From Terracidiphilus sp. (GTDB lineage: Bacteria > Acidobacteriota > Terriglobia > Terriglobales > Acidobacteriaceae): 64,000 bases of DNA. Location: positions 4,216 to 68,215 of the forward strand of contig JBEKOA010000001.1 of the NCBI GenBank assembly GCA_049522255.1. The letters are read 5' to 3'. Position 1 is the stretch's first letter. Each line of letters begins with the position of its first letter. Position numbers and translations under genes: made by a program. Positions 17,285 through 36,976 of the stretch are shown here, piece after piece. Below the pieces are notes generated by a model. It saw only the letters and a program-made list of their open reading frames with translations. It was not told the origin of the DNA and ran no database searches.

Positions 17285-17931
17285 CGATAGCTCCATCGTG
17301 TGCGGCACGCGCAATGTGCGAAGAGGACTGGTGTCAGGGACACGCCGCCCTCGACCGATGACGGTTGCTCTCAGACGTTCGAGCCCCTGTAATTTGTTGG
17401 TGGTTTGGCGATCAGGCCAGGCTCTTCGCGGAGCCAACTGGAAATCACTTCAGCTTGGGGAAGCATCCGGCACACTGGGCCAGACCTTCGCGGTGTGAGC
17501 TCTCTCAAAAGAGTCTCATTCCGCGTGGAGTGATTGCGTTGAGCATAGCGTCAAATAAGAATCAATGCAAGTAGATTCTGGTTTTGAACAATCTGTGCAG
17601 AAATCTCATTCAATATGCGTGGAAAAGCACCTTCCACTCTTGTATTCCCGATTGGATGCGTGTTAAAGCGAAGTCGGAGAGTTTCCCCATTCACCTTGCC
17701 CCGGGCATTCTTCGGGAGGTGATGATTGGGTCATTGCTTCTCTTCAGGCTTCTATCGAGTGTGACCAACGGACTATGTTTTTGCCGATCTTTAATCATGC
17801 GATACTGGAGTTGAAGATTGCTTCGAGTCCGCTGGATTCATGCGGAAATGGAGCGACGCAACTTTGCGCTGCCCGCTCTTCGTATCTTCCATCTGTGTCC
17901 ATTTCTTCTAACCCAGCACACGGAGAGACCC

Positions 17932-19622: not shown

Positions 19623-19718
19623 TTGTGATCTCTATCGAGTTGCGCTAGTCTAACCCTAAGAGTGAGACAAGGCTGTCTCCTCGGGTTCTCTCTTCCCCGC
19701 ACCACGCCGTGCCTGGGG
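19623..19718 (+). promoter_or_regulatory. Putative sigma70 promoter and candidate ANTAR-type tandem hairpins in the nirA leader
   Basis: TTGTGA-N17-TAGTCT (19623-19651); GAGAC-AAGGCT-GTCTC (19664-19679); GCAC-CACGCC-GTGC (19699-19712). Confidence 0.5.
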
Positions 19719-19886
19719 CCTTCAGACCACAATCCCTTTACTCCATGCTCCGTGATGAGCCTTGAATTCTCCGCATTGTTTGCGGCATTCATCGGGTCTC
19801 AACGCCGCTTTGCGCACGCGCACACAAGCGCTTTCAACGGGCAGTCCGGTCCTCCTCATGGATGGACTACTGGAAGGAGTGATGGC

Positions 19887-21665
19887 ATGGAAACGCTGGA
19901 TACCCTCAATTCCCAGGATTTCACGGCAGTACAGAAGGAGTATCTTCTCGGCATCTTTTCGACTGCCACGCATCATGGCTTGCGTCCTTTCGCGGGCCAC
20001 ACCGCGACCGGGCTGCTGACCAACGATTCAACTCTTGGCTCGATCAATCTGGCGGAACCGCAAGAGGAGACCTACCACGGAACGCCAGTCTCCGATCTCT
20101 GCCGCGAAGAGCGATGGAAGTATGAGCAGAATCCTCTTGATATCTGGGACAAGCTGCTGGCTCATGCAGATGAAAATCGAACACCGGCAGCGGATGATCT
20201 TTTCCGCTTCAAATTTCACGGGCTATTTTACGTAGCTCCCGCGCAGGACTCCTTCATGCTCAGGCTGCGCGTCCCAGGCGGCATTCTTACCGCTCACCAA
20301 ATGCGCGGCCTGGCGGCGATGGCCTCCGATTGGGGATCGGGCCGCGTGGACATTACGACCCGTGCCAACCTGCAGATTCGCGAATTCCAGCCGAAAGAAA
20401 TTGTTCGCGTGCTCAACAAGCTGCAATCGCTTGGGCTTACCTCGCGCGGTTCAGGCGCAGACAATATTCGTAACATCACGGCTTCGCCGATCACCGGACT
20501 CGATCCCACTGAACTCTGCGATGTGGCGCCGCTGGCCGATGCGCTTCACCATTACATTCTGAATAGCCGCGATCTGTATGGGTTGCCGCGCAAATTCAAC
20601 GTAGCCTTCGACAATGGAGGCGCCATCAGCGTCGTTGCCGATACCAACGATATTGGCTTTGTTGCTGTCCGCGTTGGTGAAGGGCGCAGCCTTCCCACGG
20701 GCGTTTATTTTCGAGTATTGTTGTGCGGCATTACTGGGCACAAACAGTTCGCTACCGATTGCGGCTTGCTGTTACGCGCCGATCAGACCGTGGCTGTTGC
20801 CGCTGCCATGATACGTGTCTTCAGCGAGAACGGCGACCGAACGGATCGCAAAAAAGCGCGCCTGAAATACCTGGTGGATCGCTGGGGCGTCGACAAGTTT
20901 CTGGATGAGACTGAAATGCGTTTGTCCTTCCCGCTGATCCGCGTTCCGATCAATGAGTGCGAGCCGCGCCTGCCGATTGATCGCGCCGGCCACATCGGTG
21001 TTCACGCGCAACGTCAAGACGATCTGCACTATATTGGGATCTCCGTGCCGGTTGGCCGTCTTCCTGCCGCGCAGATGCTGGCCCTGGCTGACATAGCCAG
21101 CAGTTACGGCAGCGGGGAGTTGCGACTCACGGTCTGGCAGAACCTGTTGATCCCAAACATTCCAACCGCTCATCTGGATGCGACGTTGGCTGCGCTTCAA
21201 GCTGTCGGTCTTGATTGCACGGCAGGGACTGTTCTGCGAGGCACTGTTGCCTGCACAGGAAATCGCGGCTGCAAGTATGCATCGACCGACACCAAGACAC
21301 ACGCGGTTGAATTGGCCAGTCTGCTTGATGCACGATTCAAGATTGAACAGCCGGTCAATCTTCATGTGACCGGTTGTCCCCACTCCTGCGCACAACATTA
21401 CATCGGCGATATCGGCCTGCTCGGCATGAAGGTTGGCGGCGCCGAAGGCTATCAAGTGGTAATCGGTGGAGGCTCGGATCTGGACAAAGGCCTGGCGCGC
21501 GAGCTAATCCCTGCTATCGCCTATAGTGATTTGCCCCCCATGATGGAACGGCTCTTTGCCGCCTATATCGAACAGCGGAAGAGAGATGAGTCCTTCCTGG
21601 ATTTCAGCCGTAGACACAGCACTGCGGAGTTGCAATCGTTTTGCGCGGCAAAGGAGCGGAGATAG
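19887..21665 (+). CDS. nirA: Siroheme-[4Fe-4S] nitrite reductase, NirA family
   Basis: FKFHGLF, MLRLRVPGG, ITTRANLQIR, GADNIRN, LPRKFN, ACTG..GC, TGCPHSCAQH; GAAGGAG RBS. Confidence 0.88.
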   Translation: METLDTLNSQDFTAVQKEYLLGIFSTATHHGLRPFAGHTATGLLTNDSTLGSINLAEPQEETYHGTPVSDLCREERWKYEQNPLDIWDKLLAHADENRTPAADDLFRFKFHGLFYVAPAQDSFMLRLRVPGGILTAHQMRGLAAMASDWGSGRVDITTRANLQIREFQPKEIVRVLNKLQSLGLTSRGSGADNIRNITASPITGLDPTELCDVAPLADALHHYILNSRDLYGLPRKFNVAFDNGGAISVVADTNDIGFVAVRVGEGRSLPTGVYFRVLLCGITGHKQFATDCGLLLRADQTVAVAAAMIRVFSENGDRTDRKKARLKYLVDRWGVDKFLDETEMRLSFPLIRVPINECEPRLPIDRAGHIGVHAQRQDDLHYIGISVPVGRLPAAQMLALADIASSYGSGELRLTVWQNLLIPNIPTAHLDATLAALQAVGLDCTAGTVLRGTVACTGNRGCKYASTDTKTHAVELASLLDARFKIEQPVNLHVTGCPHSCAQHYIGDIGLLGMKVGGAEGYQVVIGGGSDLDKGLARELIPAIAYSDLPPMMERLFAAYIEQRKRDESFLDFSRRHSTAELQSFCAAKERR

Positions 21666-21667
21666 CT

Positions 21668-23440
21668 ATGTCCACCAACCCTCCCTATATTCCCGATAAT
21701 GCTCCCTTCACACCAGAACAGCGAGCGTGGCTCAACGGCTTTCTTGCCGGACTGTTTGCAGGCGATGGTCAGCAGGCTGCCGCTGCGGAGTCCAAACCAT
21801 CGCATCGCATTGCGATTCTTTATGCCTCGCAATCCGGCACTGCCGAAGGGCTGGCGCGCAGGCTGGCCAAGGAACTTAAGGCTCAGGGCCATCAGCCAGT
21901 GGTCTCAACATTGGTCGGCTATTCGCCGGCCGCGCTGGCGTCGGAGAAATATGCACTGATCTTTGCCAGCACTTATGGCGATGGTGAAGCTCCCGATGGC
22001 GTTCAGCCATTTTTTGAAGAACTCTGTCTTGAGCACTTTCCTCGCTTCGAGGGATTGTCTTACTCCGTCTTCGCGCTCGGAGATCGCCACTACGAAAACT
22101 TCTGCAAGTTTGGCAACGATCTTGACAGCAAACTGGCTGCATTGGGTGCCAATCGCCTGGCCAATCGTGTCGATTGCGATGTGGATGTCGATGAGCCGTT
22201 AGTGCAATGGAAAGCGGAAGTTCTTCCGCGGCTTAATGAATCGGCGCCAGCACTCAAGCTTTCAAGGGCCGCTTCAACCGCCGTGGCAGTGGCGGAAAGG
22301 CCAGCGCCAAATGCCTCGTTTACGCGCGATAATCCGGTCTTTGCTCCGCTGATTCACAAAAAAGATCTTACGCACAAGACCTCCAGCAAGACGACACTTC
22401 ATCTGGCATTCTCCATTGAGGGAACGGGTATTCAGTATGAATCCGGCGACGCCTGCGGTGTTCTGCCCGCAAACGATTGCAACCTGGTCGCCGAGATCCT
22501 GCAAGCTCTACGCTTCAACGGCAACGAGCGGGTTCAATGCGGTAAGGCAGAAACCATTCCTCTTCACAATGCGTTAACTCACCATCTGCAAATCACCCGC
22601 CTGAATCGCAAGATGGTCACTGAATATGCAAACCTGGGCAAGTGCGCGCTGCTCTCTTCGCTGCTGGAACCCAGGCAGCAGCCGGAACTGGACAGATACC
22701 TCTACGGCCGAGGACTGATTGACCTGTTGATCGAGTATCCTGGCGTGGTGCAGAGCCCGGAAGAACTTGTGGCAATGCTGCCCAAACTTACGCCGCGTCT
22801 CTATTCCATATCCTCCAGCCCCATTGCTCATGCCGGGCAAATTCATACCACAGTGGCCGTGGTGCGCTACAGCGCGCACAACCGTGAGCGCGGAGGAGTG
22901 TGCTCGACGCTCTTTGCCGATCGCGCTTCCGTCTCTGACCGTTTGCCTCTTTACATTCAACCGAACAAGCGGTTCAAATTGCCAAATGATTCCGACGCCC
23001 CCATGATCATGATTGGACCCGGCACGGGCATTGCGCCGTTCCGTGGCTTTCTGCACGAGCGCCGCGCACTGGGGGCCAAGGGAAAAAACTGGCTCTTCTT
23101 TGGTGAGCGCAGCGCAACAACCGATTACCTTTATCGGGACGAGTTGGAGGCCATGCAGGCCGATGGGCATCTGACCCGCTTGGATACTGCTTTCTCGCGC
23201 GATCAGGAAGATAAGATCTACGTGCAGGATCGTATGCTGGAGCAGGCTCCGTTGTTTTGGAGTTGGTTGCAGGATGGGGCTAGTGTTTACGTCTGCGGTG
23301 ACGCGTCACGAATGGCGAAGGATGTGCATGGAGCCTTGCAAACCATTGTTCAAACGCAAGGGGGAATGCCGGCGATTGCTGCGGAGGAATATGTGGAAAC
23401 CCTGAAAGAGCAGCATCGCTACCATCGGGATGTGTACTGA
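21668..23440 (+). CDS. CysJ-like diflavin (FMN/FAD/NADPH) reductase
   Basis: YASQSGTAE, STYGDGEAP, ALGD..Y..FC, PRLYSISSS, MIGPGTGIAPFRGF, YVQD, YVCGDA, YHRDVY. Confidence 0.9.
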   Translation: MSTNPPYIPDNAPFTPEQRAWLNGFLAGLFAGDGQQAAAAESKPSHRIAILYASQSGTAEGLARRLAKELKAQGHQPVVSTLVGYSPAALASEKYALIFASTYGDGEAPDGVQPFFEELCLEHFPRFEGLSYSVFALGDRHYENFCKFGNDLDSKLAALGANRLANRVDCDVDVDEPLVQWKAEVLPRLNESAPALKLSRAASTAVAVAERPAPNASFTRDNPVFAPLIHKKDLTHKTSSKTTLHLAFSIEGTGIQYESGDACGVLPANDCNLVAEILQALRFNGNERVQCGKAETIPLHNALTHHLQITRLNRKMVTEYANLGKCALLSSLLEPRQQPELDRYLYGRGLIDLLIEYPGVVQSPEELVAMLPKLTPRLYSISSSPIAHAGQIHTTVAVVRYSAHNRERGGVCSTLFADRASVSDRLPLYIQPNKRFKLPNDSDAPMIMIGPGTGIAPFRGFLHERRALGAKGKNWLFFGERSATTDYLYRDELEAMQADGHLTRLDTAFSRDQEDKIYVQDRMLEQAPLFWSWLQDGASVYVCGDASRMAKDVHGALQTIVQTQGGMPAIAAEEYVETLKEQHRYHRDVY

Positions 23441-23500
23441 GCCGCAATGGCATCTTTCTTGTATCTGTCATTCCTATTAAAATCAAAACCGGGATGCAGG

Positions 23501-24004
23501 ATGAGAGTCTGCAAGCTATACATTTCGCCAGGGCATAATTTCTTTGGCCACCACGAACAGCCGCCCGGAGAGTATCCGCTGATCGAGTGTGCGGAGCTCC
23601 GTTGTATGGCCGGTCGCGGAGTTGAAGGAGACCGCTTCTTCGACTACAAGGACAACTACAAGGGACAGATCACTTTCTTCTCTTCCGAGGTCTTCGAGGA
23701 ACTCTGTAATCTTCTCGGCGTGCACGACAAGTCTCCGGGGGCAACCCGTCGCAACGTCATCACCGCTGGAGTGGATCTGAATTCCCTGATCGAAAGAGAG
23801 TTTGACGTACAAGGCGTGCGTTTTTCAGGTGTAGCTGAGTGCAGCCCCTGTTATTGGATGGACAAAGCCATCGCACCCGGCGCCGAGGAATTCCTGAAAG
23901 GCCGGGGTGGGTTGCGCGCGCGGATTCTAACGGATGGGGTCCTCGTAGTCGAAGATGAAATTCTCTATCGCCATTCTGCAGATTCTCAGTGTCCCCTACT
24001 TTAA
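23501..24004 (+). CDS. MOSC-domain molybdoprotein (YiiM/mARC-like)
   Basis: GRGVEGDRF, QITFF, TRRNVI..GVDLN, CSPC, GRGGLRARIL..G. Confidence 0.85.
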   Translation: MRVCKLYISPGHNFFGHHEQPPGEYPLIECAELRCMAGRGVEGDRFFDYKDNYKGQITFFSSEVFEELCNLLGVHDKSPGATRRNVITAGVDLNSLIEREFDVQGVRFSGVAECSPCYWMDKAIAPGAEEFLKGRGGLRARILTDGVLVVEDEILYRHSADSQCPLL

Positions 24005-24196: not shown

Positions 24197-24212
24197 AGGG
24201 ACTTTTGTCACT
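24197..24212. promoter_or_regulatory. Copy 1 of a 16-bp CRP/FNR-like operator (AGGGAC-TTTT-GTCACT)
   Basis: Near-identical to 27193 and 31566; centred ~-42 from a TAGACT -10 candidate at 24235. Confidence 0.6.
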
Positions 24213-24380
24213 GAAAGGAGATTGACTGCCGATTTAGACTTGGTGAGTGCGTCCTTCCAGTCGTGTCCTGTTGAGGCACACCGGCCGTTAGGCCTGATAC
24301 AGTTGCCCTTGTGTTGCTTTGTCGGGAGATCTGAACCGCAAGAAGGCTTACACATCAAGTTCTCCCCAGGGGGCGTGTCC

Positions 24381-25616
24381 ATGTCGTTTCGTTCTGTGTT
24401 TGTGGCCGTCGTCATTGCGTTTGCTCTCATACTTTCCGCCTTCCTTGTCAATCGAGCCCGCCCCAAGGTAGAGACCGACCAGCCTACCGCCGACTTTGTT
24501 CGCGCGTCCGGCAAGTGTGCCGAGTGCCATGCCCGGCTTCAATACTCCGTCGTTCACGAATACGAGATGTCCGTACATGCGAAGAAAGGCGTGAATTGCC
24601 TGGACTGTCACGAACCCGGCCCCGGCCAGCAGAAGGTGGATCACCACGGCTTCGTGATCAGTACTCACTTGACGGCAGGCAACTGCCGCTCCTGTCACGA
24701 AGGCATCTATCAGGAGTTTCTGCGCAGCCGTCACGCCGCGCCCAGTTGGGCGGCCGTGCATGGCGAAGCGGGATTGAGTGCGGAGCAGGTTGCCTTCAGC
24801 GAGCAGTTCCAGCCCGGGGGAACGAAGCGTCCGCCCAACCCACTTACGGTTCCTGAGGGGCATCCAGCAATCACTTCGGGTTGCGAACAGTGCCACGCCA
24901 TTGGCAAGCCGAACGACGACGGCACGATTGGCAGTTGCACCGAATGCCACTCGCGCCACAGCAACTCTGTTGCTCTCGCCCGCCTGCCCACCACCTGCGG
25001 CCAGTGCCATATGGGGCCCGACCACTCCCAGGTTGAGATCTATAACGAGTCAAAGCACGGCGTGATGTTCGCCGCCCAAAGCAACCTTCTTCGGCTCGAC
25101 GCCGATCCTCGCACGTTGACGACTCGCGACATGTTCGTGCCAACCTGCGCGACCTGCCATATGAGCGGCATCAACGGCCTGAAGGTTACTCACAATCCGT
25201 CCGATCGACTCGGCTGGTATCTCGCCGACGCTGTCACGACCCATCGTCCAAACTACCTTCAGGCCCAGATCAATATGAAGCAGGTCTGCACCCAATGCCA
25301 CACCCCGGCGCGTATCGACCGAGTCTACGACCAGGGTGAAGAGGTCATCAAGGGCACAAACGCCAAGGTTCTTGCCGCCAAGGACATCATGGATGGATTG
25401 CACAAAGACGGAACCCTGACGGGCCCTCCGTTTAGCCACCCGATTGACTTTACCTACTTCAATCTGTGGCACTACGACGGCCGCACCAGCAAGCACGGAG
25501 CCTTCATGGGAGGCGCCGACTTCGTCCAATGGCACGGCAATTACGAAATGCTGTCGAAGACCGTCGAACTTCAGCACGACGCCGACGAACTACGGAGAGA
25601 GCATGCTCACAAGTAA
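24381..25616 (+). CDS. Membrane-anchored octaheme c-type cytochrome, hydroxylamine-oxidoreductase (HAO) family, reductive type
   Basis: 8 CxxCH (CAECH, CLDCH, CRSCH, CEQCH, CTECH, CGQCH, CATCH, CTQCH); HMGPDHSQ.EIY.ESKHG and DGR..HGAFMGGADFVQWHG HAO signatures; N-terminal TM. Confidence 0.85.
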   Translation: MSFRSVFVAVVIAFALILSAFLVNRARPKVETDQPTADFVRASGKCAECHARLQYSVVHEYEMSVHAKKGVNCLDCHEPGPGQQKVDHHGFVISTHLTAGNCRSCHEGIYQEFLRSRHAAPSWAAVHGEAGLSAEQVAFSEQFQPGGTKRPPNPLTVPEGHPAITSGCEQCHAIGKPNDDGTIGSCTECHSRHSNSVALARLPTTCGQCHMGPDHSQVEIYNESKHGVMFAAQSNLLRLDADPRTLTTRDMFVPTCATCHMSGINGLKVTHNPSDRLGWYLADAVTTHRPNYLQAQINMKQVCTQCHTPARIDRVYDQGEEVIKGTNAKVLAAKDIMDGLHKDGTLTGPPFSHPIDFTYFNLWHYDGRTSKHGAFMGGADFVQWHGNYEMLSKTVELQHDADELRREHAHK

Positions 25617-26547
25617 ACTGCTCCTTCGCATTCAGAAGATCATTCTCGACCCGCGCCTGCTGTGGGTGCACGATCTCACGCTTTGGGTCGAGCTGTTTGT
25701 CACCGTGAATCTGGCGATTCTTGCCGCGGACATTTACCTCGCACATTCGGTGAATCATTTTCAAAAGGCGGCGGAGTATATCCCGCTCTACTTTTCAATG
25801 GGCTCGCCGGTAGTGCTCGCGGCCGTGATCGCCCTGCGCTGGATAGGTCGATTTGAAGCTCCTTGGCGCGACGTAGGCTACCTGGTCGGTGGTCTTTCAG
25901 TGCTGGTCGGGTTAGGCGGAGTGCTTTACCACTTGGAGAGCCGGTTCTTTCTGGATCGCACGTTGAAGAGCCTCACCTACGCAGCGCCTTTTGCCGCGCC
26001 GCTCGCGTATACCGGCCTCGGCTTTCTCCTCTTGATGAATCGCATGGTGGCTGCGCGAAGTGCCGAGTGGGCACGTTGGGTGATCCTCCTGGCGCTGGGC
26101 GGCTTCTTCGGGAACTTCGTTCTGTCGTTGACCGACCACGCATCCAATGGCTTCTTTGCAAGAACCGAATGGATTCCCGTTGTTTCTTCGGCATTTGCTA
26201 CCGGATTCCTGATCGTCCTCCTCATGGCGGTGGTGACGCGCCGATTTCTCGACGCTTGCCTTGTGGTAATGTTCGCGCAGGCCTTCGTCGGTGTTTTGGG
26301 ATTCTGGTTTCATCTGCGCGCGAATCTGTTCGAGCCCGGCAGCAGCGTCTTCGACAAACTCGTCAATGGCGCTCCCCCAATGGCTCCGCTGCTATTTCCG
26401 AATCTCGTTGGACTGGCTCTGATCGGACTGTGGGCTTTGATTCCTCATTTACCGGAAGCGCCATCAAGCCGTTCCTGGCTGGGTGCAACTTACGCGTGGG
26501 TGCATCCCGGAGTGGAAACGGGTGCGTCAGATGGGCACGTTCGCTGA
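25603..26547 (+). CDS. Integral membrane protein with internal duplication and 4 conserved His; probable HAO partner
   Basis: Overlaps the hao stop; two halves each with H..N.F...E.IP, VG..G..(Y/F)HL and AP..AP. Confidence 0.75.
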   Translation: MLTSKLLLRIQKIILDPRLLWVHDLTLWVELFVTVNLAILAADIYLAHSVNHFQKAAEYIPLYFSMGSPVVLAAVIALRWIGRFEAPWRDVGYLVGGLSVLVGLGGVLYHLESRFFLDRTLKSLTYAAPFAAPLAYTGLGFLLLMNRMVAARSAEWARWVILLALGGFFGNFVLSLTDHASNGFFARTEWIPVVSSAFATGFLIVLLMAVVTRRFLDACLVVMFAQAFVGVLGFWFHLRANLFEPGSSVFDKLVNGAPPMAPLLFPNLVGLALIGLWALIPHLPEAPSSRSWLGATYAWVHPGVETGASDGHVR

Positions 26548-26631
26548 TCAGGCATTTCCATTGGCGCTTACTCGCATTCAACTTGCAGCCTGGAGATGTT
26601 CGACGCTGGAGCGTCGTGACCAGGCAGAAAC

Positions 26632-27174
26632 GTGAGAACTAACTTGGCGGTACAAATAGGCGCAAAACCGGACAGCGGATTCGACGATCCAATTGGGATG
26701 CTAGTGGACTGCCACCGCAGGGTCGAAGGCTTTCTTGGGATTTTATGCGCTGTAGTTGAGCGCGCCAAAAACAGAGAATTGACCGATGAAGAGAAGAGCG
26801 CGGTTCAATCGGCTCTTCAGTATTTCCAACTGGGTGGGCAGCGGCATACTGCCGATGAGGAGGAGTCTCTGTTTCCTCGGTTGCGGGGAAAACCAAATCC
26901 AGCAATCGACGCGATTGCCGGGCTGCAATCGGACCATCGCCGCGCCAATCGGTTGCATGATTCGATCGAGAGGATATATCTGACCTGGATCTCCAGCGGA
27001 AGACTGACACCCGAAGAGACAGAACGACTACTGTCTCAGACAGGTGAACTCAAAGAACTCTACTCAGCCCATATATTGATGGAGGAAACCGTCGTGTTCC
27101 CCTACGCAGCGAAGGTATTGGACGGCGAGGTTATTGCCAAAATTGCCGCCGAATTCAAGATGCGGAGAAAATGA
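26632..27174 (+). CDS. Hemerythrin-like (HHE) di-iron protein
   Basis: H..VE, HTADEEESLFP, DHRR, HILMEETVVFP. Confidence 0.85.
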   Translation: MRTNLAVQIGAKPDSGFDDPIGMLVDCHRRVEGFLGILCAVVERAKNRELTDEEKSAVQSALQYFQLGGQRHTADEEESLFPRLRGKPNPAIDAIAGLQSDHRRANRLHDSIERIYLTWISSGRLTPEETERLLSQTGELKELYSAHILMEETVVFPYAAKVLDGEVIAKIAAEFKMRRK

Positions 27175-27192: not shown

Positions 27193-27208
27193 AGTGACCA
27201 AAGTCGCT
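27193..27208. promoter_or_regulatory. Copy 2 of the 16-bp operator (AGTGAC-CAAA-GTCGCT)
   Basis: Centred -41.5 from a TACGCT -10 candidate at 27230, upstream of ric. Confidence 0.65.
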
Positions 27209-27254: not shown

Positions 27255-27974
27255 ATGACCCCAAACCCACAGACCGTTCGCGAAATCGCCCTGGAACAGC
27301 CATCTTCAATAAGAGTTTTTGAGAGATTTGGAATCGACTATTGCTGCGGGGGCCGCAAGCCTCTCAGCGAAGCGTGTATGGCCGGAAATCTTGAGGTAGA
27401 CATTGTGATCGCCGCGTTGGAAGCGGCTGCAAAGGCGCCGGATTCAGAAGTTGAAAACTGGTCCGGTAAGTCGTTGGAGAGCCTGAGCGCGCATATCGTC
27501 ACCACGCACCATGCCTACGTAAAGCGAGAACTGCCTAGACTCGCCGTGCTCGCCGAGAAGGTTGTGAATCGTCATGGCGCAACAAAGACGGAATTGCCGG
27601 GAATCGCTGGAACACTAGCGCGGCTCGACGGGGAACTCACGCAGCATCTGGCGAAAGAAGAAGCCGTCCTGTTTCCCTACATTGCGGATCTTGAACGGGC
27701 CGTTTCGAATCATGCCGCGAAGCCACGCAGTTGCTTCGGGACGGTTGCCAACCCGATCGCGATGATGACGCAGGAACACGATGCTGCCGGAACGCTCCTC
27801 GCTGAAATTCGTCGTCTCAGCCACAATTTCACCACGCCTGAGGATGCCTGCCCTACCTTTCATGCCTTCTACGGCGGGCTAAAGGAATTTGAACAGGACC
27901 TGCACCAGCACATTCATTTGGAGAACAACATACTGTTTCCGCGTGCAATAGAGATGGAGAAAGCCGCATCCTAA
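27255..27974 (+). CDS. ric: Iron-sulfur cluster repair di-iron protein (RIC/YtfE/ScdA)
   Basis: GIDYCCGG, HH.YVKRELP, HLAKEEAVLFP, EHD..G, HIHLENNILFP. Confidence 0.93.
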   Translation: MTPNPQTVREIALEQPSSIRVFERFGIDYCCGGRKPLSEACMAGNLEVDIVIAALEAAAKAPDSEVENWSGKSLESLSAHIVTTHHAYVKRELPRLAVLAEKVVNRHGATKTELPGIAGTLARLDGELTQHLAKEEAVLFPYIADLERAVSNHAAKPRSCFGTVANPIAMMTQEHDAAGTLLAEIRRLSHNFTTPEDACPTFHAFYGGLKEFEQDLHQHIHLENNILFPRAIEMEKAAS

Positions 27975-28007: not shown

Positions 28008-29807
28008 TTACTCGTCGACTGGGGCTGTCTTCCTCGCCCCGCGGAACGGTGGACGAACGTGCAGGACGCGTTCCCGGCTGCGCTCCTCAGAGAGGTTGCG
28101 GGCGCGCGCACTCAGCATGTCATCGAGCGAAATCATGCCTAAGATTCTGCGTTCTTCGCCGCTATCCACCACCGGCATCCTCGTGAAACCCGTTTCTGCC
28201 ATGCGATAAACTAGAGTTCGCAGCGACTCATCTGCAACCGCCACGACGGGGTCGCGGCGTGCAATGTCGGACAGCAAGGCGCGATCGCTACTGCACTTGG
28301 CCAAATCCTTGCGGGTGATTACACCCCTCAGGCGGTGATTTGCATCGATCACGGGATAAAGGTGCTGCCCGCGAGAAGGATGGCCATTCTTCAACATTCT
28401 CAGTGCATCGTCGAGCGTGCCGCTCCCCTCGAACGCGAGTATTTGTGTACGCATCACTTCGCTAGCGAATAGCACCTCCAGCGGATCCACGCTGTACTCG
28501 CGGCTGAGATGAAAGCCGCGTCGAGCCACCTTCTCAGTCAGGATCGAACGCTTCAACACCAACACCGTGAACGTGTGCGCAATGACGGCGGCTACGATGA
28601 GTGGCAGGATCATGTTCACGTCGTGCGTCAGCTCGATTGCGAATACGATTCCGGTGAATGGCGAACGCATGGTGCCGGCAAGGATCGCTCCCATGCTGAC
28701 AAGTGGCCAGAAGCCGGGTCCGGCCGCGGGAAGAAACAAAGCTTCAAGGCCGCCCAATGCGCCACCCATCATCAGCAACGGGGCAAGAACCCCGCCCGAT
28801 GTTCCCGATCCCAACGATACCGCCCAGATAGTGGACTTCACCAGCAGGATTCCCAGCAGCAGGCCAATGGCGCCGTTGCCCTCAAGGAGAGTGGCAATTG
28901 TGTCGTAACCAACGCCGAGGGCCTGCGGAAAGATCATGCCTCCCAGCCCGATCACCAGGCCTCCGATAGCCGGCCACCACATCCAGTGGATCGGCAGCTT
29001 TGCGAAGGCATCCTCGGCGGCGTAGACGGCGCCGGTAAGCAATGCAGATAACGCACCCGCGAGCAGTCCGCAGACGACGCAGCCCATGAGCCCGCCAGGA
29101 CCAATGAATACAGAATGCGCCGGTGTAGGAAAGAGCGGGCCGAGACCGATCAGGTATCGCCGTGCTGCGCATGCAGTTGCACTGGCCAGCGCCACCGGAA
29201 TCAGACTGCGCGGCTTCCACTCGAAGAGCAGCAACTCGACCGCAAGAAGAATCGCCGAGAGTGGCGCGGCAAATGTGGCCGACATGCCGGCCGCCGCTCC
29301 GGCCACAAGCAAGGTCTTTCGTTCAGCGCTGGTGAGATGAAAAAACTGTGCGATCATCGACCCGAACGCGCCGCCCGTCATGATGATGGGGCCCTCCGCG
29401 CCGAATGGCCCGCCGGTTCCTATTGAAAGCGCTGCCGAGAGCGGCTTCAGAATTGCCAGCTTCGGATGCACCCTGCTGCCGCCGATCAAGATCGATTCGA
29501 TGGCCTCCGGTATGCCATGCCCGCGAATCCGTTCTGATCCGTAGCGTGCCATCAGGCCAATGATCAACCCGCCGGCTACTGGCACCAGAACAGCCCACCA
29601 GCCAAGGTGATTTTCCGCGGGTGAGACCAAGCTGCTTCCGATTCGCTGATAGTAGAAGAGATTGGTGAAGAACCCGATCAGCCGTAGCAGTGCAAGCGCA
29701 ACGTAGGCGCCGATGAGACCGATCACCATCGCCAGGCCGGCGATTGGCAGCACGCGACTCGTAGTTGTGAAATCGCCCAGCTTCTTAAGTTCCGCACAGA
29801 GTTTCAT
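28008..29807 (-). CDS. ClC-family anion channel/antiporter with a CBS pair
   Basis: GHGIP, GAEGP, GSGTSGGVLAP, FAIELT; C-terminal CBS (HLYPVID, RMPVVD). Confidence 0.9.
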   Translation of the reverse strand: MKLCAELKKLGDFTTTSRVLPIAGLAMVIGLIGAYVALALLRLIGFFTNLFYYQRIGSSLVSPAENHLGWWAVLVPVAGGLIIGLMARYGSERIRGHGIPEAIESILIGGSRVHPKLAILKPLSAALSIGTGGPFGAEGPIIMTGGAFGSMIAQFFHLTSAERKTLLVAGAAAGMSATFAAPLSAILLAVELLLFEWKPRSLIPVALASATACAARRYLIGLGPLFPTPAHSVFIGPGGLMGCVVCGLLAGALSALLTGAVYAAEDAFAKLPIHWMWWPAIGGLVIGLGGMIFPQALGVGYDTIATLLEGNGAIGLLLGILLVKSTIWAVSLGSGTSGGVLAPLLMMGGALGGLEALFLPAAGPGFWPLVSMGAILAGTMRSPFTGIVFAIELTHDVNMILPLIVAAVIAHTFTVLVLKRSILTEKVARRGFHLSREYSVDPLEVLFASEVMRTQILAFEGSGTLDDALRMLKNGHPSRGQHLYPVIDANHRLRGVITRKDLAKCSSDRALLSDIARRDPVVAVADESLRTLVYRMAETGFTRMPVVDSGEERRILGMISLDDMLSARARNLSEERSRERVLHVRPPFRGARKTAPVDE

Positions 29808-30229
29808 CCGCCATCCAGTACGCCGCTTAGCGTTTTCATCAGTTCAGGCCCTTTGGCCCGCAATTCTTCATGGTGCGCGAGAGACAACCTTTGCAACAAT
29901 GACTCTCCCTCACTCGTGAGCCGAACAAGCACTTCACGATGATCTGTTTCTGCCGCCACCCGCTCTACCATCCCGTGTTCCGTCATCCTGTTCACCAGTT
30001 CAACAGTGCTGTGATGGCGAATCAGCATCCGCGTCGCCAGCTCGCCGATCGTAGGCTTCACGCCATCCGGCAAGCCCTTGATGGCCAGCAAAAGCTGATG
30101 CTGTTGCGGCTCGATCCCATGAGTGCGTGCCTGATCTTCGCTGAACCGCAAAAACCGGCGGATCTGGTAACGAAATTCGGCCAGGTCTTGAAATTCGCGA
30201 GTCGTGAGCCGAGCTCTTCTTGCTGTCAT
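29804..30229 (-). CDS. MarR-family regulator
   Basis: IEPQQHQLLLAI, IGELA, HHSTVELVNRM..G.V.R...DHREVLVRLT.EG; overlaps the clc start. Confidence 0.88.
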   Translation of the reverse strand: MTARRARLTTREFQDLAEFRYQIRRFLRFSEDQARTHGIEPQQHQLLLAIKGLPDGVKPTIGELATRMLIRHHSTVELVNRMTEHGMVERVAAETDHREVLVRLTSEGESLLQRLSLAHHEELRAKGPELMKTLSGVLDGG

Positions 30230-30264
30230 CTATATATCGTATCACGATATATCGCCACACTCAA
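30230..30264 (-). promoter_or_regulatory. sigma70 promoter (TTGAGT-N17-TACGAT) overlapping a 9-3-9 inverted repeat; probably leaderless
   Basis: ATATATCGT-ATC-ACGATATAT at 30232-30252; -10 ends 6 nt before the ATG. Confidence 0.7.
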
Positions 30265-30419
30265 TTGGCCGCATCAGTTCGAGACCCGGCCAGGTCTGGA
30301 CGGTGCTGAAAACCCCGCTTTTTGAGCATCGGAGTTGACTGGCGAAGTCGCGCTATCGGTGGATGGGAGCCAACGCTAGCTGATCCGAAGCCCCGAATTC
30401 CCTGAAGGGACAGGGCGGA

Positions 30420-31529
30420 TCACATGCCGGGATGGGACAATTCGTTCGCGTGTGGCACGAGACGCAAATAGACTGAGCGCGGGATATTTGTCTGCCAGTG
30501 ATTTGTGGCTCGGGCAAATAGCATCAGTCCGAAAAAGATATACGCGAGAACGGCGGTGACGGCCAGAGGTCCAAGTGTGCGGCGAAACCATCGATGCGAG
30601 GCTGCCGCGCCGCGTCTCGGTGCAAGTGCGAATTGAAGCGCATCCTGCCGTGGGCAAACTGCCACGCATGCCAGGCACGCGTTGCACTCTGCCGACCGGA
30701 TCTGTGTCAGGCGGTCGACCGGCAGGCTTGCCGGACAAGCTCGCGCGCACTTTCCGCAATCGAGGCAGTGCTCTGCGTCTCGGCGAATCTTGACAGGACT
30801 AAGAAGCGAAACGAGCCCCATCAGCGCGCCGTAAGGACAGAGGTAGCGGCACCAGAAGTTCTTGAGCAGCAGGGAGCCGAAAACCAGAATGGCAAGGACG
30901 ATGGCGGCGGTCTGCCCCATATCGCGAAAGAAGTTCAACATCTTCACGTCTGCCACCAGGCCATAAGGAGTGTTCATGAAGCTCTCCAATGCCTCGCCGG
31001 ACATAGCGCCAATGACGAGAACGAAGAATCCGAGCAACAGGTATTTCAGCCCGCGTAAAGGGCTGTCGGCCCAACGGGGAAGTCGCAGATTGCGCCCGAA
31101 GATCCTTCGCCCTATCTTCCACAGATACTCTGAGAGTGTTCCCACTGGGCAAAGCCAGGAGCAGAAGGCCTTCTTCAGCAAAAGACTCATCAGCAGAAAG
31201 GCAATCAACAAAAACATGGCCGCAGGGTGAATGGACGGCACGCGCCCGGTAAATAGAAGGTACTTGAGATTCATCAGACCGGCGATGGGCAGCCAGCCCT
31301 CGGCCCCGGGAGGGCGAGGCACGTAAAATCCCTCACCTCCGTGTTCGAAATAGCGGACCCACAGAATGAACTGAACCCCAAGCCAGCCGTTCAAAGCCAC
31401 AAACAGCAACTGCACAAGGTGCCTGATCCGTTGGGAGTTGTCCGCCACGGGCCGGCGAATTAGCGGCTTCTTCTCGTTGAGGCGAGAAACTCCTTTTGCT
31501 GACTGGGTCTCCATGGCCGATTCTTCCAT
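30420..31529 (-). CDS. YccM/NapH-like membrane polyferredoxin
   Basis: CSWLCP, CRYLCP, CLDCGKCARACP, CNACLACVAVCP; TM helices. Confidence 0.85.
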   Translation of the reverse strand: MEESAMETQSAKGVSRLNEKKPLIRRPVADNSQRIRHLVQLLFVALNGWLGVQFILWVRYFEHGGEGFYVPRPPGAEGWLPIAGLMNLKYLLFTGRVPSIHPAAMFLLIAFLLMSLLLKKAFCSWLCPVGTLSEYLWKIGRRIFGRNLRLPRWADSPLRGLKYLLLGFFVLVIGAMSGEALESFMNTPYGLVADVKMLNFFRDMGQTAAIVLAILVFGSLLLKNFWCRYLCPYGALMGLVSLLSPVKIRRDAEHCLDCGKCARACPASLPVDRLTQIRSAECNACLACVAVCPRQDALQFALAPRRGAAASHRWFRRTLGPLAVTAVLAYIFFGLMLFARATNHWQTNIPRSVYLRLVPHANELSHPGM

Positions 31530-31565: not shown

Positions 31566-31581
31566 AGCGACTTTTGTCACA
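31566..31581. promoter_or_regulatory. Copy 3 of the 16-bp operator (minus strand TGTGAC-AAAA-GTCGCT)
   Basis: Centred ~-40 from an extended -10 TGcTATAGT (31541-31549, minus). Confidence 0.65.
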
Positions 31582-33057: not shown

Positions 33058-33909
33058 TCAATGCAGTAGAGAACCTACCCGTTGCCGCATTTTACCGAGT
33101 GCCAGCAGGATGCCGTGGAGCAGCGCCTCCGGGCGAGGCGGGCATCCGGGGATGTAGACGTCAACCGGAATCACCGCATCCACTCCGCCCAGCGAGGCGT
33201 AGTTGGCGCCGAAGATGCCTCCACTGATGCCGCATGCGCCCACGGCGACCACGATCTTTGGATCAGGCGTCGCGGCCCAGACCTTGCGCAATGCCAGTTC
33301 CATGTTGCGCGTGACCGGGCCGGTGACCAGCAGCATGTCGGCATGACGCGGCGATGCCACGAAGTGAATGCCAAATCGTTCAATGTCATGTACCGGATTA
33401 TTCAACGCAACGATCTCCTGCTCGCAGCCGTTGCACGAGCCTGCATCGACTTGGCGAATCGCAAGCGACCGTCCGAGCAGGTTTTGAATTGCCGCCGCGA
33501 TTCGCTTGCCGGGCTCATCAAGGACCGGGCCACATGTGGACGATTGCAGCGTGGCATGGGTGGCATCGGGATTGAGCGTGTATTTGGCGGTCAGCACGAG
33601 ATCGCGGCGATCGCCGGCCGCAAGCTCGAACTTTCGCGTCATGCGCACTGCACTGTCTGCATTGGCCGCCTCGCATTCGCCGCAAAAAATGCACCGGCCG
33701 TAGTCAACGGTGACCTGTCGCAGGCCGTCGGAGTCGCGGAGGGCGATGGCTCCAGTGGGGCAAGCCTCGGCCGCGGGACGCGCATCGTGCCAAATTTCAA
33801 ACTCAAACTCAGGGCATCCGCGAAACTGCTCGGCCAGGCGCGGTGAAACGTTTGGATAGTCGGCCGTCGCCGTGCCGATGCTGAACGATTTTTGGAGGAT
33901 CTTGAACAT
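33058..33909 (-). CDS. ehrS: Ehr/group-4 small subunit (NuoB/HycG-like) fused to an N-terminal ferredoxin (NuoI/HycF-like)
   Basis: DAGSCNGCE, SPRHAD, GACG.SGG, PGCPP; N-terminal ACPTGAI and CIFCGEC. Confidence 0.85.
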   Translation of the reverse strand: MFKILQKSFSIGTATADYPNVSPRLAEQFRGCPEFEFEIWHDARPAAEACPTGAIALRDSDGLRQVTVDYGRCIFCGECEAANADSAVRMTRKFELAAGDRRDLVLTAKYTLNPDATHATLQSSTCGPVLDEPGKRIAAAIQNLLGRSLAIRQVDAGSCNGCEQEIVALNNPVHDIERFGIHFVASPRHADMLLVTGPVTRNMELALRKVWAATPDPKIVVAVGACGISGGIFGANYASLGGVDAVIPVDVYIPGCPPRPEALLHGILLALGKMRQRVGSLLH

Positions 33910-33913
33910 CGTG

Positions 33914-36975: not shown

Positions 36976-36976
36976 C

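What the first reader, a model, noticed from the sequence alone, without database searches (positions are those of the whole stretch)
24381..25616. Compact reductive-type octaheme HAO-like cytochrome downstream of assimilatory nitrite genes
Seen: 8 CxxCH, an N-terminal anchor, ~410 aa, and C-terminal GADFVQWHG. Established: oxidative HAO has a Tyr cross-link to heme P460, while reductive epsilon-HAO-type enzymes have Trp at that site and reduce nitrite/hydroxylamine to ammonium. By-eye alignment places Trp here. Inference: a periplasmic nitrite/NH2OH/NO reductase (NrfA-independent ammonification or detoxification), unusual beside nas/nir and NO-stress genes.
Basis: partly seen in the sequence, partly recalled or inferred. 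Interest (0 to 1): 0.75.

Follow-up and report, generated by a model that had tools for sequence, protein, structure and literature searches.

The report
Acidobacterial octaheme N-oxide reductase module
A peat acidobacterium encodes an eight-heme enzyme related to hydroxylamine oxidoreductase but lacking its oxidising tyrosine; it is always paired with an undescribed membrane protein among nitric-oxide-stress genes, so it probably removes nitrite, NO or hydroxylamine rather than nitrifying.

Summary
ORF 24381-25616 (+) encodes a 411-aa protein with eight CxxCH motifs, a predicted N-terminal membrane helix and the C-terminal GADFVQWHG. It belongs to the HAO/IhOCC octaheme family. The closest solved structure is Ignicoccus IhOCC.

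No tyrosine lies in the cross-link loop. My alignments put NeHAO Tyr467 on Gln383; the published epsilon-Hao convention (Met, seven residues, Trp) puts it on Trp384. The Asp-His pair and seven distal histidines are conserved. A reductive role is therefore well supported by homology.

- The gene overlaps a 314-aa, eight-helix protein with four invariant histidines and no known family. That protein sits directly downstream in 80 of 80 Acidobacteriaceae species loci.
- The nas/nir neighbourhood is incidental (about 1 of 80 loci).
- The recurrent neighbours are qNOR, YtfE/RIC, a CRP/FNR regulator and Hcp. A shared palindromic operator, GKGAC-N4-GTCRC, precedes hao, ytfE and a napH-like gene in this window.

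Peat metatranscriptomes contain hao, ytfE and napH-like transcripts but none from nirA or cysJ.

Best reading: a quinol-fed periplasmic nitrite/NO/hydroxylamine reductase in a nitrosative-stress regulon. The product (ammonium or NO) and the partner's cofactors are untested. I rate it a new variant of a known kind.

The parts
24381..25616 (+). hao-like gene: 411-aa Tyr-less octaheme cytochrome c of the HAO/IhOCC family
   Evidence: ORF and translation. Pfam PF13447. PDB best hit 4qo5, 3.7e-29, rising to 6e-83 with a profile. Foldseek top hits 4qo5, 6h5l and 1fgj. More than 4000 homologues, all Acidobacteriota where a source names an organism.
24387..24455 (+). Predicted N-terminal membrane helix (residues 3-25), a signal anchor
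   Evidence: Hydrophobic stretch. AF2 helix 3-25 with pLDDT 84-88. Conserved in the family. Whether it is cleaved was not tested.
24882..24896 (+). CEQCH, heme-4 motif; aligns with the catalytic P460 heme motif CTMCH of NeHAO
   Evidence: phmmer and hmmsearch alignments to 1fgj residues 229-233.
25020..25025 (+). Asp214-His215, equivalent to the NeHAO Asp267-His268 distal pair
   Evidence: Alignment of GPDH with GVDH. Conserved in 120 of 120 close homologues and 43 of 55 distant representatives.
25506..25544 (+). Cross-link loop M376-GGADFVQWHGN-Y388. No Tyr between D380 and N387. Gln383 or Trp384 occupies the NeHAO Tyr467 column.
   Evidence: hhalign. Four MAFFT modes. M376, F381, Q383, W384 and H385 are invariant in 120 of 120 close homologues. 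The Met-x7-Trp rule is quoted in PMC8940962.
25603..26547 (+). Partner gene: 314-aa, 8-TM protein with no known family, an internal 4+4 TM duplication, and invariant H48, H110, H179, H237 at the predicted periplasmic ends of TM1/3/5/7. It overlaps the hao stop codon by 14 nt.
   Evidence: Lies directly downstream of hao in 80 of 80 species loci. A 28%-identical orthologue sits next to a 40%-identical hao relative. An RNA contig spans the hao/partner junction.
24198..24211 (.). Operator-like palindrome GGGACTTTTGTCAC, 183 nt upstream of the hao ATG
   Evidence: One of only 3 exact GKGAC-N4-GTCRC sites in 64 kb (0.57 expected). Found upstream of hao in 51 of 70 loci at about -175 to -200, whatever the upstream gene.
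24294..24303 (+). Conserved CTGnTAnAnT element (extended -10-like), 78 nt before the hao ATG
   Evidence: Invariant columns in an alignment of 13 upstream regions. Its function is inferred only.
26632..27174 (+). Hemerythrin-domain gene, probably co-transcribed with the partner gene
   Evidence: Pfam PF01814. An RNA contig at 26471-26654 bridges the partner 3' end and this gene.
27194..27207 (.). Second operator copy, GTGACCAAAGTCGC, 61 nt upstream of ytfE
   Evidence: The same position before ytfE recurs in L013, L029, L045, L076, L082 and L083.
27255..27974 (+). ytfE/RIC gene (iron-sulfur cluster repair di-iron protein)
   Evidence: NCBIfam TIGR03652, 239.6 bits against a cut-off of 204.7. 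High contig depth in metatranscriptomes.
30420..31529 (-). NapH/MauN-like membrane ferredoxin gene, heading a napH-like / marR / ClC operon
   Evidence: Pfam Fer4_5 x2 and NCBIfam napH subfamily, below cut-off. MarR and ClC were called in the 99%-identical strain L010. An RNA contig at 30008-31055 bridges marR and napH-like.
31567..31580 (.). Third operator copy (GTGACAAAAGTCGC on the minus strand), 38 nt upstream of the napH-like start

Best explanation
The gene encodes a membrane-anchored, periplasm-facing octaheme cytochrome c of the HAO/IhOCC family. It cannot form the Tyr-heme P460 cross-link and therefore works reductively.

Proposed electron path: quinol pool, then the co-translated 8-TM partner (whose four invariant histidines at the predicted periplasmic face may hold two b hemes), then the seven bis-His hemes, then the five-coordinate heme 4 (CEQCH) with its Asp214-His215 pocket. 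There nitrite, NO and/or hydroxylamine are reduced, most likely to ammonium.

The hao-partner pair is a fixed two-gene module of Acidobacteriaceae. It belongs to a nitrosative-stress regulon that also includes qNOR, YtfE/RIC, Hcp, hemerythrin and a NapH-like protein. The regulon is marked by a GKGAC-N4-GTCRC operator and is probably run by a Cys-poor CRP/FNR-family regulator. Its likely role is to clear nitrite-derived N-oxides from the periplasm in acidic peat, not nitrification and not assimilation.

Shown here: family membership, absence of Tyr, conserved ligands, fixed gene pairing, neighbourhood statistics, operator enrichment, in-situ transcription.
Inferred: substrate, product, the partner as quinol dehydrogenase with b hemes, the identity of the regulator, and NO responsiveness.
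For: Family and catalytic features:
- Pfam PF13447; PDB hits IhOCC, NeHAO, KsHOX, HDH and Kustc0458; fold search gives the same set.
- No Tyr in D380-N387; Tyr467 aligns to Gln383; the M376-x7-W384 epsilon-Hao signature is present.
- Asp-His pair and seven non-motif histidines (66, 88, 118, 193, 226, 271, 364) are invariant in 120 of 120 close homologues.
- Characterised Tyr-less relatives are reductases: epsilon-Hao and HAOr (PMC8042395), and IhOCC, called an octaheme nitrite reductase in PMC9250108.

Partner:
- Directly downstream of hao in 80 of 80 species loci, with the same short overlap in 67 of 80.
- Retained next to 39-40%-identical hao relatives outside this family.
- Four invariant histidines and a 4+4 TM duplication.

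Neighbourhood:
- Divergent qNOR in 36 of 65 loci; Hcp in 4 of 65.
- ytfE in 45 of 80, CRP/FNR in 43 of 80, hemerythrin in 9 of 80.

Operator:
- 3 exact sites in the window against 0.57 expected, all in promoter regions of hao, ytfE and napH-like.
- 108 sites in 673 kb of loci.
- Also found before the crp/fnr genes.

RNA:
- hao, partner, ytfE and napH-like contigs are present in four peat metatranscriptomes; none maps to 17.5-24.2 kb, the nirA/cysJ/MOSC region.
Against: - There is no biochemical evidence for any member of this clade, and no paper on it was found.
- The AF2 model is mediocre (pLDDT 62) and the trimer could not be modelled, so the residue that faces heme 4 of the neighbouring subunit is not known.
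- The partner model is poor (pLDDT 50). It has no homologue of known function, so heme b binding and quinol oxidation are conjecture.
- All four histidines lie on the same predicted membrane face, which is unusual for dihaem cytochromes b.
- The operator lies about 180 nt from the hao ATG and only about 73 nt from norB, so it may serve norB mainly.
- In some genomes (L001-L004) the module lies after secG with no NO-related genes within 10 kb.
- Contig-based RNA depth is a weak measure of expression.
- No CRP/FNR gene of this type lies in the window.
Confidence: 0.5

Rival explanations
1. The enzyme is an NO-forming nitrite reductase, like anammox HAOr/Kustc0458. It would stand in for NirK/NirS and feed the divergently encoded qNOR, giving Acidobacteriaceae a truncated, N2O-producing denitrification pathway (nitrite to NO to N2O).
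For: - HAOr, a Tyr-less HAO, reduces nitrite to NO (PMC8042395).
- Kustc0458 is the second-best structural match.
- hao is divergently paired with qNOR and shares one operator with it in 36 of 65 loci.
- From my own knowledge, untested here: a nitrite reductase, a nor gene, a CRP/FNR regulator and an NnrS-sized membrane protein make up the layout of NnrR/DNR regulons in denitrifiers.
Against: - The closest sequence relatives with measured activity (IhOCC, epsilon-Hao) make ammonium.
- The window lineage and the secG-context genomes carry the module without norB nearby.
- HAOr's dihaem partner is absent here.
- There are no product data.
Confidence: 0.2
2. It acts on a non-nitrogen substrate or serves as an electron conduit. 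Examples are sulfite, tetrathionate, Fe(III) or humic reduction in peat, or electron storage. The N-oxide activities would then be side reactions, as for several multiheme cytochromes.
For: - All multiheme cytochromes of this superfamily show nitrite or NO reductase activity in vitro, whatever their physiological role (PMC9250108).
- The physiological role of IhOCC is unsettled (PMC4429474).
- In some genomes the module has no N-related neighbours.
Against: - The HAO-type Asp-His pocket is strictly conserved.
- The recurrent neighbours and the shared operator are all NO/nitrite-related.
- No sulfur or metal-respiration genes recur in the neighbourhood.
Confidence: 0.12
3. It is part of the nitrate/nitrite assimilation system beside it, for example scavenging periplasmic nitrite or hydroxylamine to ammonium for growth, co-regulated with nasA, nirA and cysJ.
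For: It lies 376 nt downstream of nirA-cysJ-MOSC on the same strand in this window and in near-identical strains.
Against: - The adjacency is rare: among 80 species loci, cysJ appears once and MOSC never within the flanks.
- hao has its own conserved promoter region and operator.
- The metatranscriptomes contain hao contigs but no nirA, cysJ, MOSC or ANTAR contigs.
Confidence: 0.05
4. It is a true hydroxylamine dehydrogenase (EC 1.7.2.6), as JGI/KEGG-style annotation states, and oxidises NH2OH in heterotrophic nitrification.
For: Source annotations read 'hydroxylamine dehydrogenase'. It is homologous to NeHAO.
Against: - No Tyr at or near the cross-link column.
- No haoB, c554 or cM552 genes; compare the AOB cluster in L093.
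- The partner is unrelated to HaoB (hhalign probability 0.07%).
- Tyr-less HAOs do not oxidise NH2OH (PMC8042395).
Confidence: 0.03

Closest known systems
IhOCC (Igni_0955, PDB 4qo5), the membrane-associated octaheme cytochrome c of Ignicoccus hospitalis
   Same: It is the best sequence and fold match among solved structures. Both have eight hemes, no Tyr cross-link, and the GxAM...D...G C-terminal motif. IhOCC is treated in the literature as an octaheme nitrite reductase (PMC9250108).
   Different: IhOCC is archaeal and 521 aa. It has the long insertion after heme 4 (GS...WPN.GxGRxNPDGS) that is deleted here, and its loop reads NGQDWTTFKRG. About 19% identity in the structural alignment. No homologue of the 8-TM partner is reported for it in the papers I could read.
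Epsilon-Hao / HaoCA of Campylobacterota (Haase et al. 2017)
   Same: Tyr-less and reductive (nitrite and NH2OH to ammonium). The 'Trp plus Met eight residues earlier' signature is matched here by M376/W384. Both are proposed to be membrane-bound and quinol-linked.
   Different: The epsilon-Hao gene sits downstream of haoC, a NapC/NrfH-type tetrahaem quinol dehydrogenase (my recollection of the abstract; the paper was not held). Here no second multiheme gene exists in 64 kb. The partner is a heme-c-free 8-TM protein encoded downstream.
HAOr (Kustc0458/Kustc0457) of Kuenenia stuttgartiensis, PDB 6h5l
   Same: Tyr-less HAO paralogue and second-best fold match. Experimentally a reductase of nitrite, NO and NH2OH (PMC8042395).
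   Different: HAOr is soluble, sits in the anammoxosome, forms an alpha6beta6 complex with a dihaem cytochrome c, and its product is NO. Its loop reads AQQDVSWWWGQ.
Nitrosomonas europaea HAO (1fgj) with HaoB, c554 and cM552
   Same: Same fold and heme order. The Asp267-His268 pair and most distal histidines align.
   Different: NeHAO has Tyr467 (GGWTYTEGW), the P460 cofactor and an oxidative function. It is 546-570 aa and has a haoB-cycA-cycB gene set. None of these is present here.
NrfHA / NrfABCD cytochrome c nitrite reductase systems
   Same: They work alike: a periplasmic multiheme reductase fed from the quinol pool through a membrane subunit. From my own knowledge, NrfA also detoxifies NO.
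   Different: NrfA is pentahaem with a CxxCK Lys-ligated active heme. Sequence similarity is only marginal (E about 0.002-0.5). Its partners are NrfH or NrfBCD, not this 8-TM protein.

Membership tests
HAO/IhOCC octaheme cytochrome c family (Pfam PF13447) | Eight CxxCH motifs in the family's order and spacing | tested here: met
   Eight motifs. Invariant columns across 22 diverse relatives. PF13447 at 86 bits against a cut-off of 21.9.
HAO/IhOCC octaheme cytochrome c family (Pfam PF13447) | Seven bis-His hemes plus one five-coordinate heme 4, that is, seven conserved non-motif histidines | tested here: met
   H66, H88, H118, H193, H226, H271 and H364 are conserved in 119-120 of 120 close homologues and in most distant ones. 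Their ligand roles are inferred from alignment, not from a structure.
HAO/IhOCC octaheme cytochrome c family (Pfam PF13447) | Distal Asp-His pair at the catalytic heme (NeHAO D267/H268) | tested here: met
   D214/H215 in GPDH align with GVDH. Conserved in 120 of 120 close homologues.
HAO/IhOCC octaheme cytochrome c family (Pfam PF13447) | HAO fold and homotrimer | tested here: inconclusive
   Foldseek top 11 hits are all HAO-family chains (E 1.7e-11 to 1.2e-06, TM about 0.5), but the model has pLDDT 62. The trimer could not be modelled.
Oxidative HAO / hydroxylamine dehydrogenase EC 1.7.2.6 | Cross-linking Tyr (NeHAO Tyr467) forming P460 | tested here: not met
   The column holds Gln383 by hhalign and four MAFFT modes, or Trp384/His385 by published conventions. 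There is no Tyr in residues 380-387.
Oxidative HAO / hydroxylamine dehydrogenase EC 1.7.2.6 | haoB, c554 and cM552 genes alongside | tested here: not met
   An AOB cluster for comparison is in L093. The window has no other ORF with two or more CxxCH. The partner is unrelated to HaoB.
Oxidative HAO / hydroxylamine dehydrogenase EC 1.7.2.6 | 460-475 nm absorbance and NH2OH oxidation | not testable with these tools
   Needs purified protein.
Epsilon-Hao (HaoCA) subfamily | Trp at the Tyr position with a conserved Met eight residues earlier | tested here: met
   M376 and W384 are eight residues apart and invariant in 120 of 120 close homologues. The rule is as quoted in PMC8940962.
Epsilon-Hao (HaoCA) subfamily | Adjacent haoC encoding a NapC/NrfH-type tetrahaem cytochrome | tested here: not met
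   The upstream gene is MOSC and the downstream gene is the heme-c-free 8-TM partner. No other multiheme ORF in the window.
Epsilon-Hao (HaoCA) subfamily | Nitrite and hydroxylamine reduction to ammonium | not testable with these tools
   Needs an enzyme assay.
HAOr (Kustc0458/7) type | Dihaem cytochrome c partner subunit | tested here: not met
   No dihaem ORF in the window.
NrfA cytochrome c nitrite reductase | Five hemes with a CxxCK active-site motif | tested here: not met
   Eight CxxCH and no CxxCK. NrfA models score far below cut-off.
Partner as HaoB (PF27869), NrfD/DmsC-type anchor, or any known family | Detectable sequence or profile similarity | tested here: not met
   No Pfam or NCBIfam hit even at E 1-10. 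hhalign against HaoB gives 0.07% and against a DmsC domain 0.3%. PDB profile search gives no hit.
Partner as membrane dihaem cytochrome b / quinol dehydrogenase | Pairs of conserved transmembrane His ligands; bound heme b; a quinol site | tested here: inconclusive
   Four invariant histidines, one pair per 4-TM repeat. All lie at the same predicted membrane face. The model is poor (pLDDT 50). Heme content cannot be tested here.
CRP/FNR-type NO/nitrite-responsive regulon | Shared palindromic operator with N4 spacing before co-regulated genes and before the regulator's own gene | tested here: met
   GKGAC-N4-GTCRC: 3 sites in the window against 0.57 expected and 108 in 673 kb of loci, before hao, norB, ytfE, napH-like and crp. 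Binding and the effector were not tested. The regulator lacks the FNR Cys cluster.

The most novel reading that the evidence does not exclude
The hao-partner pair is a new kind of respiratory nitrite reductase complex. A heme-c-free, internally duplicated 8-TM protein that binds two b hemes through four histidines on the predicted periplasmic side oxidises menaquinol. It feeds a Tyr-less octaheme enzyme that makes NO for the divergently encoded qNOR. Under this reading, abundant peat and soil Acidobacteriaceae, usually regarded as non-denitrifiers, would be hidden sources of NO and N2O from nitrite. Much of the 'hao' signal in acidic-soil metagenomes would then report this pathway rather than nitrification.
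Probability: 0.15. Interest if true: 0.85.

Novelty: new variant of a known kind. Interest (0 to 1): 0.6.

Why it matters
1. The family is large: more than 4000 sequence clusters and at least 186 species genomes, mostly Terracidiphilus and other Acidobacteriaceae from peat and acid soils. I found no paper describing it.

2. Pipelines label it 'hydroxylamine dehydrogenase'. Peat and soil surveys count hao as a nitrification gene (PMC13298671, PMC12502596, 10.1101/2025.11.04.686510). If this clade is reductive, those counts are misread wherever Acidobacteriaceae dominate.

3. It adds a fourth electron-input solution to the HAO family, alongside c554/cM552, HaoC and the Kustc0457 dihaem protein. 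This one uses a membrane protein family with no known relatives.

4. The conserved operator and the qNOR/YtfE/Hcp neighbourhood define a testable nitrosative-stress regulon in a phylum whose regulation is almost unstudied. This is relevant to survival in acidic, nitrite-decomposing environments and to NO/N2O budgets.

5. A cultured strain with a complete genome and two copies of the module, Telmatobacter bradus DSM 23630, makes all of this directly testable.

Tried and rejected
- Profile searches against PDB sequences to read the Tyr467 column directly. The HMMER alignments stop at NeHAO residue 409-411, before the loop. I therefore recovered a Nitrosomonas-type C-terminus (P0271) by searching with the printed 1fgj fragment.
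- My first by-eye guess put Tyr467 on Phe381, because many relatives read PDY there. I rejected it: it needs a 3-residue gap, and no alignment method gave it.
- Structure of the partner. The AF2 model has pLDDT 50 and its fold search gave only meaningless hits, with no E-value at or below 0.001.
- Partner as HaoB, as a DmsC/NrfD-like anchor, or as any Pfam, NCBIfam or PDB family. All negative.
- Canonical FNR box TTGAT-N4-ATCAA. Not enriched and absent upstream of hao.
- Generic sigma-70 and terminator scans and Rfam. Nothing informative.
- The 442-aa membrane protein in the crp-ytfE operons reminded me of NnrS. No Pfam or NCBIfam hit supports that, so I do not claim it.
- Haase 2017 and Dietl 2019 could not be read.
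The scan with close sequences therefore under-samples distant lineages.
Full report
**1. The observation**

The ORF at 24381-25616 (+) starts with ATG and encodes 411 residues. It carries eight CxxCH motifs at residues 46, 73, 102, 168, 186, 206, 256 and 303. The six-frame translation of the whole 64-kb window holds only 16 such motifs, and no other ORF has two or more. Residues 3-25 are hydrophobic and are modelled as a helix with pLDDT 84-88. GADFVQWHG occupies residues 378-386. The longer TTG-started ORF from 24222 is not the gene: all 120 best homologues are 411-412 aa and begin MSFRS. A metatranscriptome contig from a related strain loses similarity exactly upstream of 24381.

**2. Family**

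Pfam gives PF13447 (2.9e-24). Against PDB sequences the best hit is 4qo5, the Ignicoccus hospitalis octaheme cytochrome IhOCC (3.7e-29). Next come N. europaea HAO, Kuenenia HOX, HDH and Kustc0458. A profile built from 22 diverse relatives raises the IhOCC hit to 6e-83.

The AlphaFold model is mediocre (pLDDT 62). Its first 11 Foldseek matches are nevertheless all HAO-family chains, led by 4qo5 and the reductive Kustc0458.

Alignment to NeHAO places CEQCH (168-172) on the P460 heme motif and D214-H215 on the catalytic Asp267-His268. Seven non-motif histidines (66, 88, 118, 193, 226, 271, 364) and the Asp-His pair are invariant in 120 close homologues and largely kept in 55 full-length representatives at 30-57% identity. 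That is the ligand count expected for seven bis-His hemes and one open heme.

**3. The cross-link site**

PDB alignments stop before the loop. I therefore recovered a Nitrosomonas-type C-terminus (P0271, 84% identical to the 1fgj fragment). It reads ...[23 protein letters not shown]. Counting from TNRP (408-411) makes the Tyr of GGWTY residue 467.

hhalign of the two family profiles and four MAFFT strategies all anchor on G373=G456, A379=P462 and G386=G470. All of them place Tyr467 on Gln383. An AOB-type sequence without the one-residue insertion (P0273) aligns ungapped to the same column.

The literature uses slightly different registers. PMC8940962, following Haase 2017, describes a Trp at the Tyr position with a conserved Met eight residues earlier; that pattern is M376/W384 here. 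PMC12758564 speaks of His at the key site.

The robust statement is that D380-F-V-Q-W-H-G-N387 contains no tyrosine, and that M376, F381, Q383, W384 and H385 are invariant in the clade. Which side chain faces the neighbouring heme 4 needs a trimer structure.

Characterised Tyr-less HAOs are reductases (PMC8042395; PMC9250108).

**4.

The hao stop codon overlaps by 14 nt an ORF at 25603-26547. It encodes a 314-aa protein with eight predicted helices and no Pfam, NCBIfam or PDB relative. It has about 3900 homologues, all annotated 'hypothetical'.

A scan of species-representative genomes found it in 186 genomes. The best 80 are all Acidobacteriaceae, Terracidiphilus or Telmatobacter. In 80 of 80 of those loci a hao-like gene lies directly upstream, with the same short overlap in 67.

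Across these distances H48, H110, H179 and H237 are invariant. The N-terminal four helices align with the C-terminal four (hhalign 97.3%, E 1.7e-11), pairing H48 with H179 and H110 with H237. By the positive-inside rule, all four histidines sit at the periplasmic ends of TM1, 3, 5 and 7. This is my reading of the sequence.

The protein is unrelated to AOB HaoB (0.07%) and to a DmsC domain (0.3%). I propose that it is the electron-input subunit, possibly binding two b hemes. This is inference only.

**5. Neighbourhood**

In this window the module follows narK, a NasA/NasC-like molybdoenzyme, a HemD-GAF-ANTAR regulator, a NirA-family protein, a CysJ-like flavoprotein and a MOSC protein. It precedes a hemerythrin, YtfE/RIC, ClC, MarR and a NapH-like protein.

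That nas/nir adjacency is almost unique. Among 80 species loci, cysJ appears once and MOSC never within the flanks. In two other genomes the module follows secG, among unrelated genes.

The recurrent neighbours are:
- a divergently transcribed qNOR in 36 of 65 loci with full flanks (Pfam PF22085 plus COX1);
- Hcp in 4 of 65;
- ytfE in 45 of 80;
- a CRP/FNR gene in 43 of 80;
- an unassigned 442-aa membrane protein in 44 of 80;
- hemerythrin in 9 of 80.

Telmatobacter bradus DSM 23630, a cultured strain, has two copies, each followed by a convergent crp-ytfE-442aa operon.

**6. A shared operator**

Upstream regions of hao from 70 loci share TGCAGGGACTTTAGTCAC. The core is a 14-bp palindrome, GKGAC-N4-GTCRC, present in 51 of 70 loci, mostly at about -175 to -200.

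In the 64-kb window the exact pattern occurs three times, against 0.57 expected; only 2 of 100 shuffles reach three. The three sites are:
- 24198-24211, 183 nt before hao;
- 27194-27207, 61 nt before ytfE;
- 31567-31580, 38 nt before the napH-like gene.

In 673 kb of fetched loci there are 108 exact sites, where I would expect about six by scaling the window's shuffle expectation. They lie in the norB-hao intergenic region (71-84 nt from the norB start in most loci), about 60 nt before plus-strand ytfE genes, and 20-30 nt before the crp/fnr genes. The site stays at -180 to -200 from hao where norB is absent (window, L032, L038, L049).

A second conserved element, CTGnTAnAnT, lies 78 nt before the ATG and looks like an extended -10.

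The neighbouring regulator has the E--SR-type recognition helix and lacks the FNR cysteine cluster. That makes it a DNR/NnrR/NssR-like candidate, an assignment from my own knowledge. No such gene lies in this window.

**7. Expression**

The window sequence is held almost completely by peat and wetland metagenomes. In four metatranscriptomes of one study, contigs at 95% identity or more cover:
- hao (depth 3-9);
- the hao-partner junction (25560-25731);
- the partner-hemerythrin junction (26471-26654);
- ytfE (30-67);
- ClC;
- the napH-like gene (17-39).

Nothing maps to 17.5-24.2 kb, which holds the ANTAR regulator, nirA, cysJ and MOSC. Contig depth is a weak measure. Even so, the pattern agrees with the operator-defined set and not with co-expression with the assimilation genes.

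**8. Mechanism and rivals**

The best-supported reading is a quinol-fed periplasmic reductase for nitrite, NO and/or hydroxylamine that belongs to a nitrosative-stress regulon (confidence 0.5).

The main rival keeps the same chemistry at heme 4 but a different product. In that reading the enzyme forms NO from nitrite, as HAOr does, and feeds the adjacent qNOR (0.2). The sequence data do not separate the two.

The other rivals are less likely for the reasons listed in the report sections:
- a non-nitrogen substrate or electron conduit (0.12);
- a role in assimilation (0.05);
- true hydroxylamine oxidation (0.03).

**9. Comparison and novelty**

It works like IhOCC, epsilon-Hao and NrfHA-type systems. 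It is a member of the HAO/IhOCC family.

It fails the defining tests for three narrower groups:
- oxidative HAO: no Tyr and no haoB/cycAB genes;
- the epsilon-Hao HaoCA module: no haoC;
- HAOr: no dihaem partner.

The compact clade, its obligatory 8-TM four-His partner and its operator-defined regulon were not found in any paper in the searchable library. I rate it a new variant of a known kind, with interest 0.6.

Its practical weight is that it is very abundant in acid soils and peat. It is routinely annotated, and counted, as a nitrification gene.

Noticed in passing
window 24198-24211, 27194-27207, 31567-31580; also L013-L092: A 14-bp palindrome, GKGAC-N4-GTCRC, marks the promoter regions of hao, ytfE and a napH-like gene here. 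In other genomes it marks norB, ytfE and a crp/fnr gene. It looks like the operator of an undescribed acidobacterial NO/nitrite-stress regulon.
   Followed up: yes
window 24294-24303: A conserved CTGnTAnAnT element (extended -10-like) lies 78 nt before the hao ATG. Its key columns are invariant across 13 aligned upstream regions. It implies a leader of about 70 nt, with the operator about 105 nt upstream of the putative transcription start.
   Followed up: partly
window 17818-19611 (+): A regulator that fuses a uroporphyrinogen-III-synthase-like (HemD) domain to GAF and ANTAR domains sits divergent from the nitrate reductase genes and ahead of nirA. It is an unusual architecture for a nitrate/nitrite-assimilation antiterminator.
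   Followed up: no
window 13437-17437 (-): A NasA/NasC-like molybdopterin enzyme is followed by a single protein that fuses a DmsB-like 4Fe-4S subunit to a DmsC-like membrane anchor. This suggests a membrane-anchored, quinol-linked form of an otherwise 'assimilatory-type' nitrate reductase.
   Followed up: no
window 19662-24004 (+): A NirA-family hemoprotein (NCBIfam NF007126, 807 bits), a CysJ-like diflavin reductase and a small MOSC protein lie in a row. CysJ plus MOSC recalls the E. coli CysJ/YcbX system for N-hydroxylated compounds (my own knowledge). No RNA contigs mapped here.
   Followed up: partly
L019:4186-5514 (-), L028:3984-5312 (-), and 44 of 80 species loci: A 442-aa multi-pass membrane protein with no Pfam or NCBIfam match is the last gene of the crp-ytfE operon next to hao-partner. 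It is absent from this window. Its size and a GHGHAQMFGW motif recalled NnrS, but that is unverified.
   Followed up: partly
window 28008-31529 (-): An apparent operon of napH-like, marR and a CBS-domain ClC channel sits behind an operator copy. The ClC 3' end and ytfE have the highest RNA contig depths in the region (50-100). ClC genes also flank hao in 9 of 80 loci.
   Followed up: partly
window 33058-40625 (-): A run of genes for NuoB-like, fused 30/49-kDa NuoCD-like and several proton-antiporter-like subunits. It looks like a group-4 hydrogenase or Mbx/Hyf-like membrane complex.
   Followed up: no
L019 and L028 (NZ_CP184532.1): Telmatobacter bradus DSM 23630 carries two full copies of hao-partner with crp-ytfE-442aa, each with two operator sites in a longer upstream region. 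It is a cultured handle for experiments.
   Followed up: partly
L030 (NZ_JBAURI010001292.1): A 1.9-kb contig binned into a 'Bradyrhizobium sp.' MAG encodes a partner protein 83% identical to the window's. This is most likely a binning error rather than horizontal transfer.
   Followed up: no
L005:3322-4875 and 2243-2965; L008: A 40%-identical hao relative with a partner orthologue sits after a 517-aa mono/dihaem cytochrome c gene and a divergent CRP/FNR gene. Another relative (P0135) lacks the partner and is followed by an NqrA-like protein beside DsrC/DsrE-like genes. Electron partners therefore differ between clades.
   Followed up: no
A1 and (family-wide): Many distant relatives read PDY three residues before the conserved Trp (Tyr in 29 of 55 representatives at the Phe381 column). 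Alignment choices could wrongly score these as 'Tyr present', which may explain inconsistent oxidative/reductive calls in surveys.
   Followed up: partly
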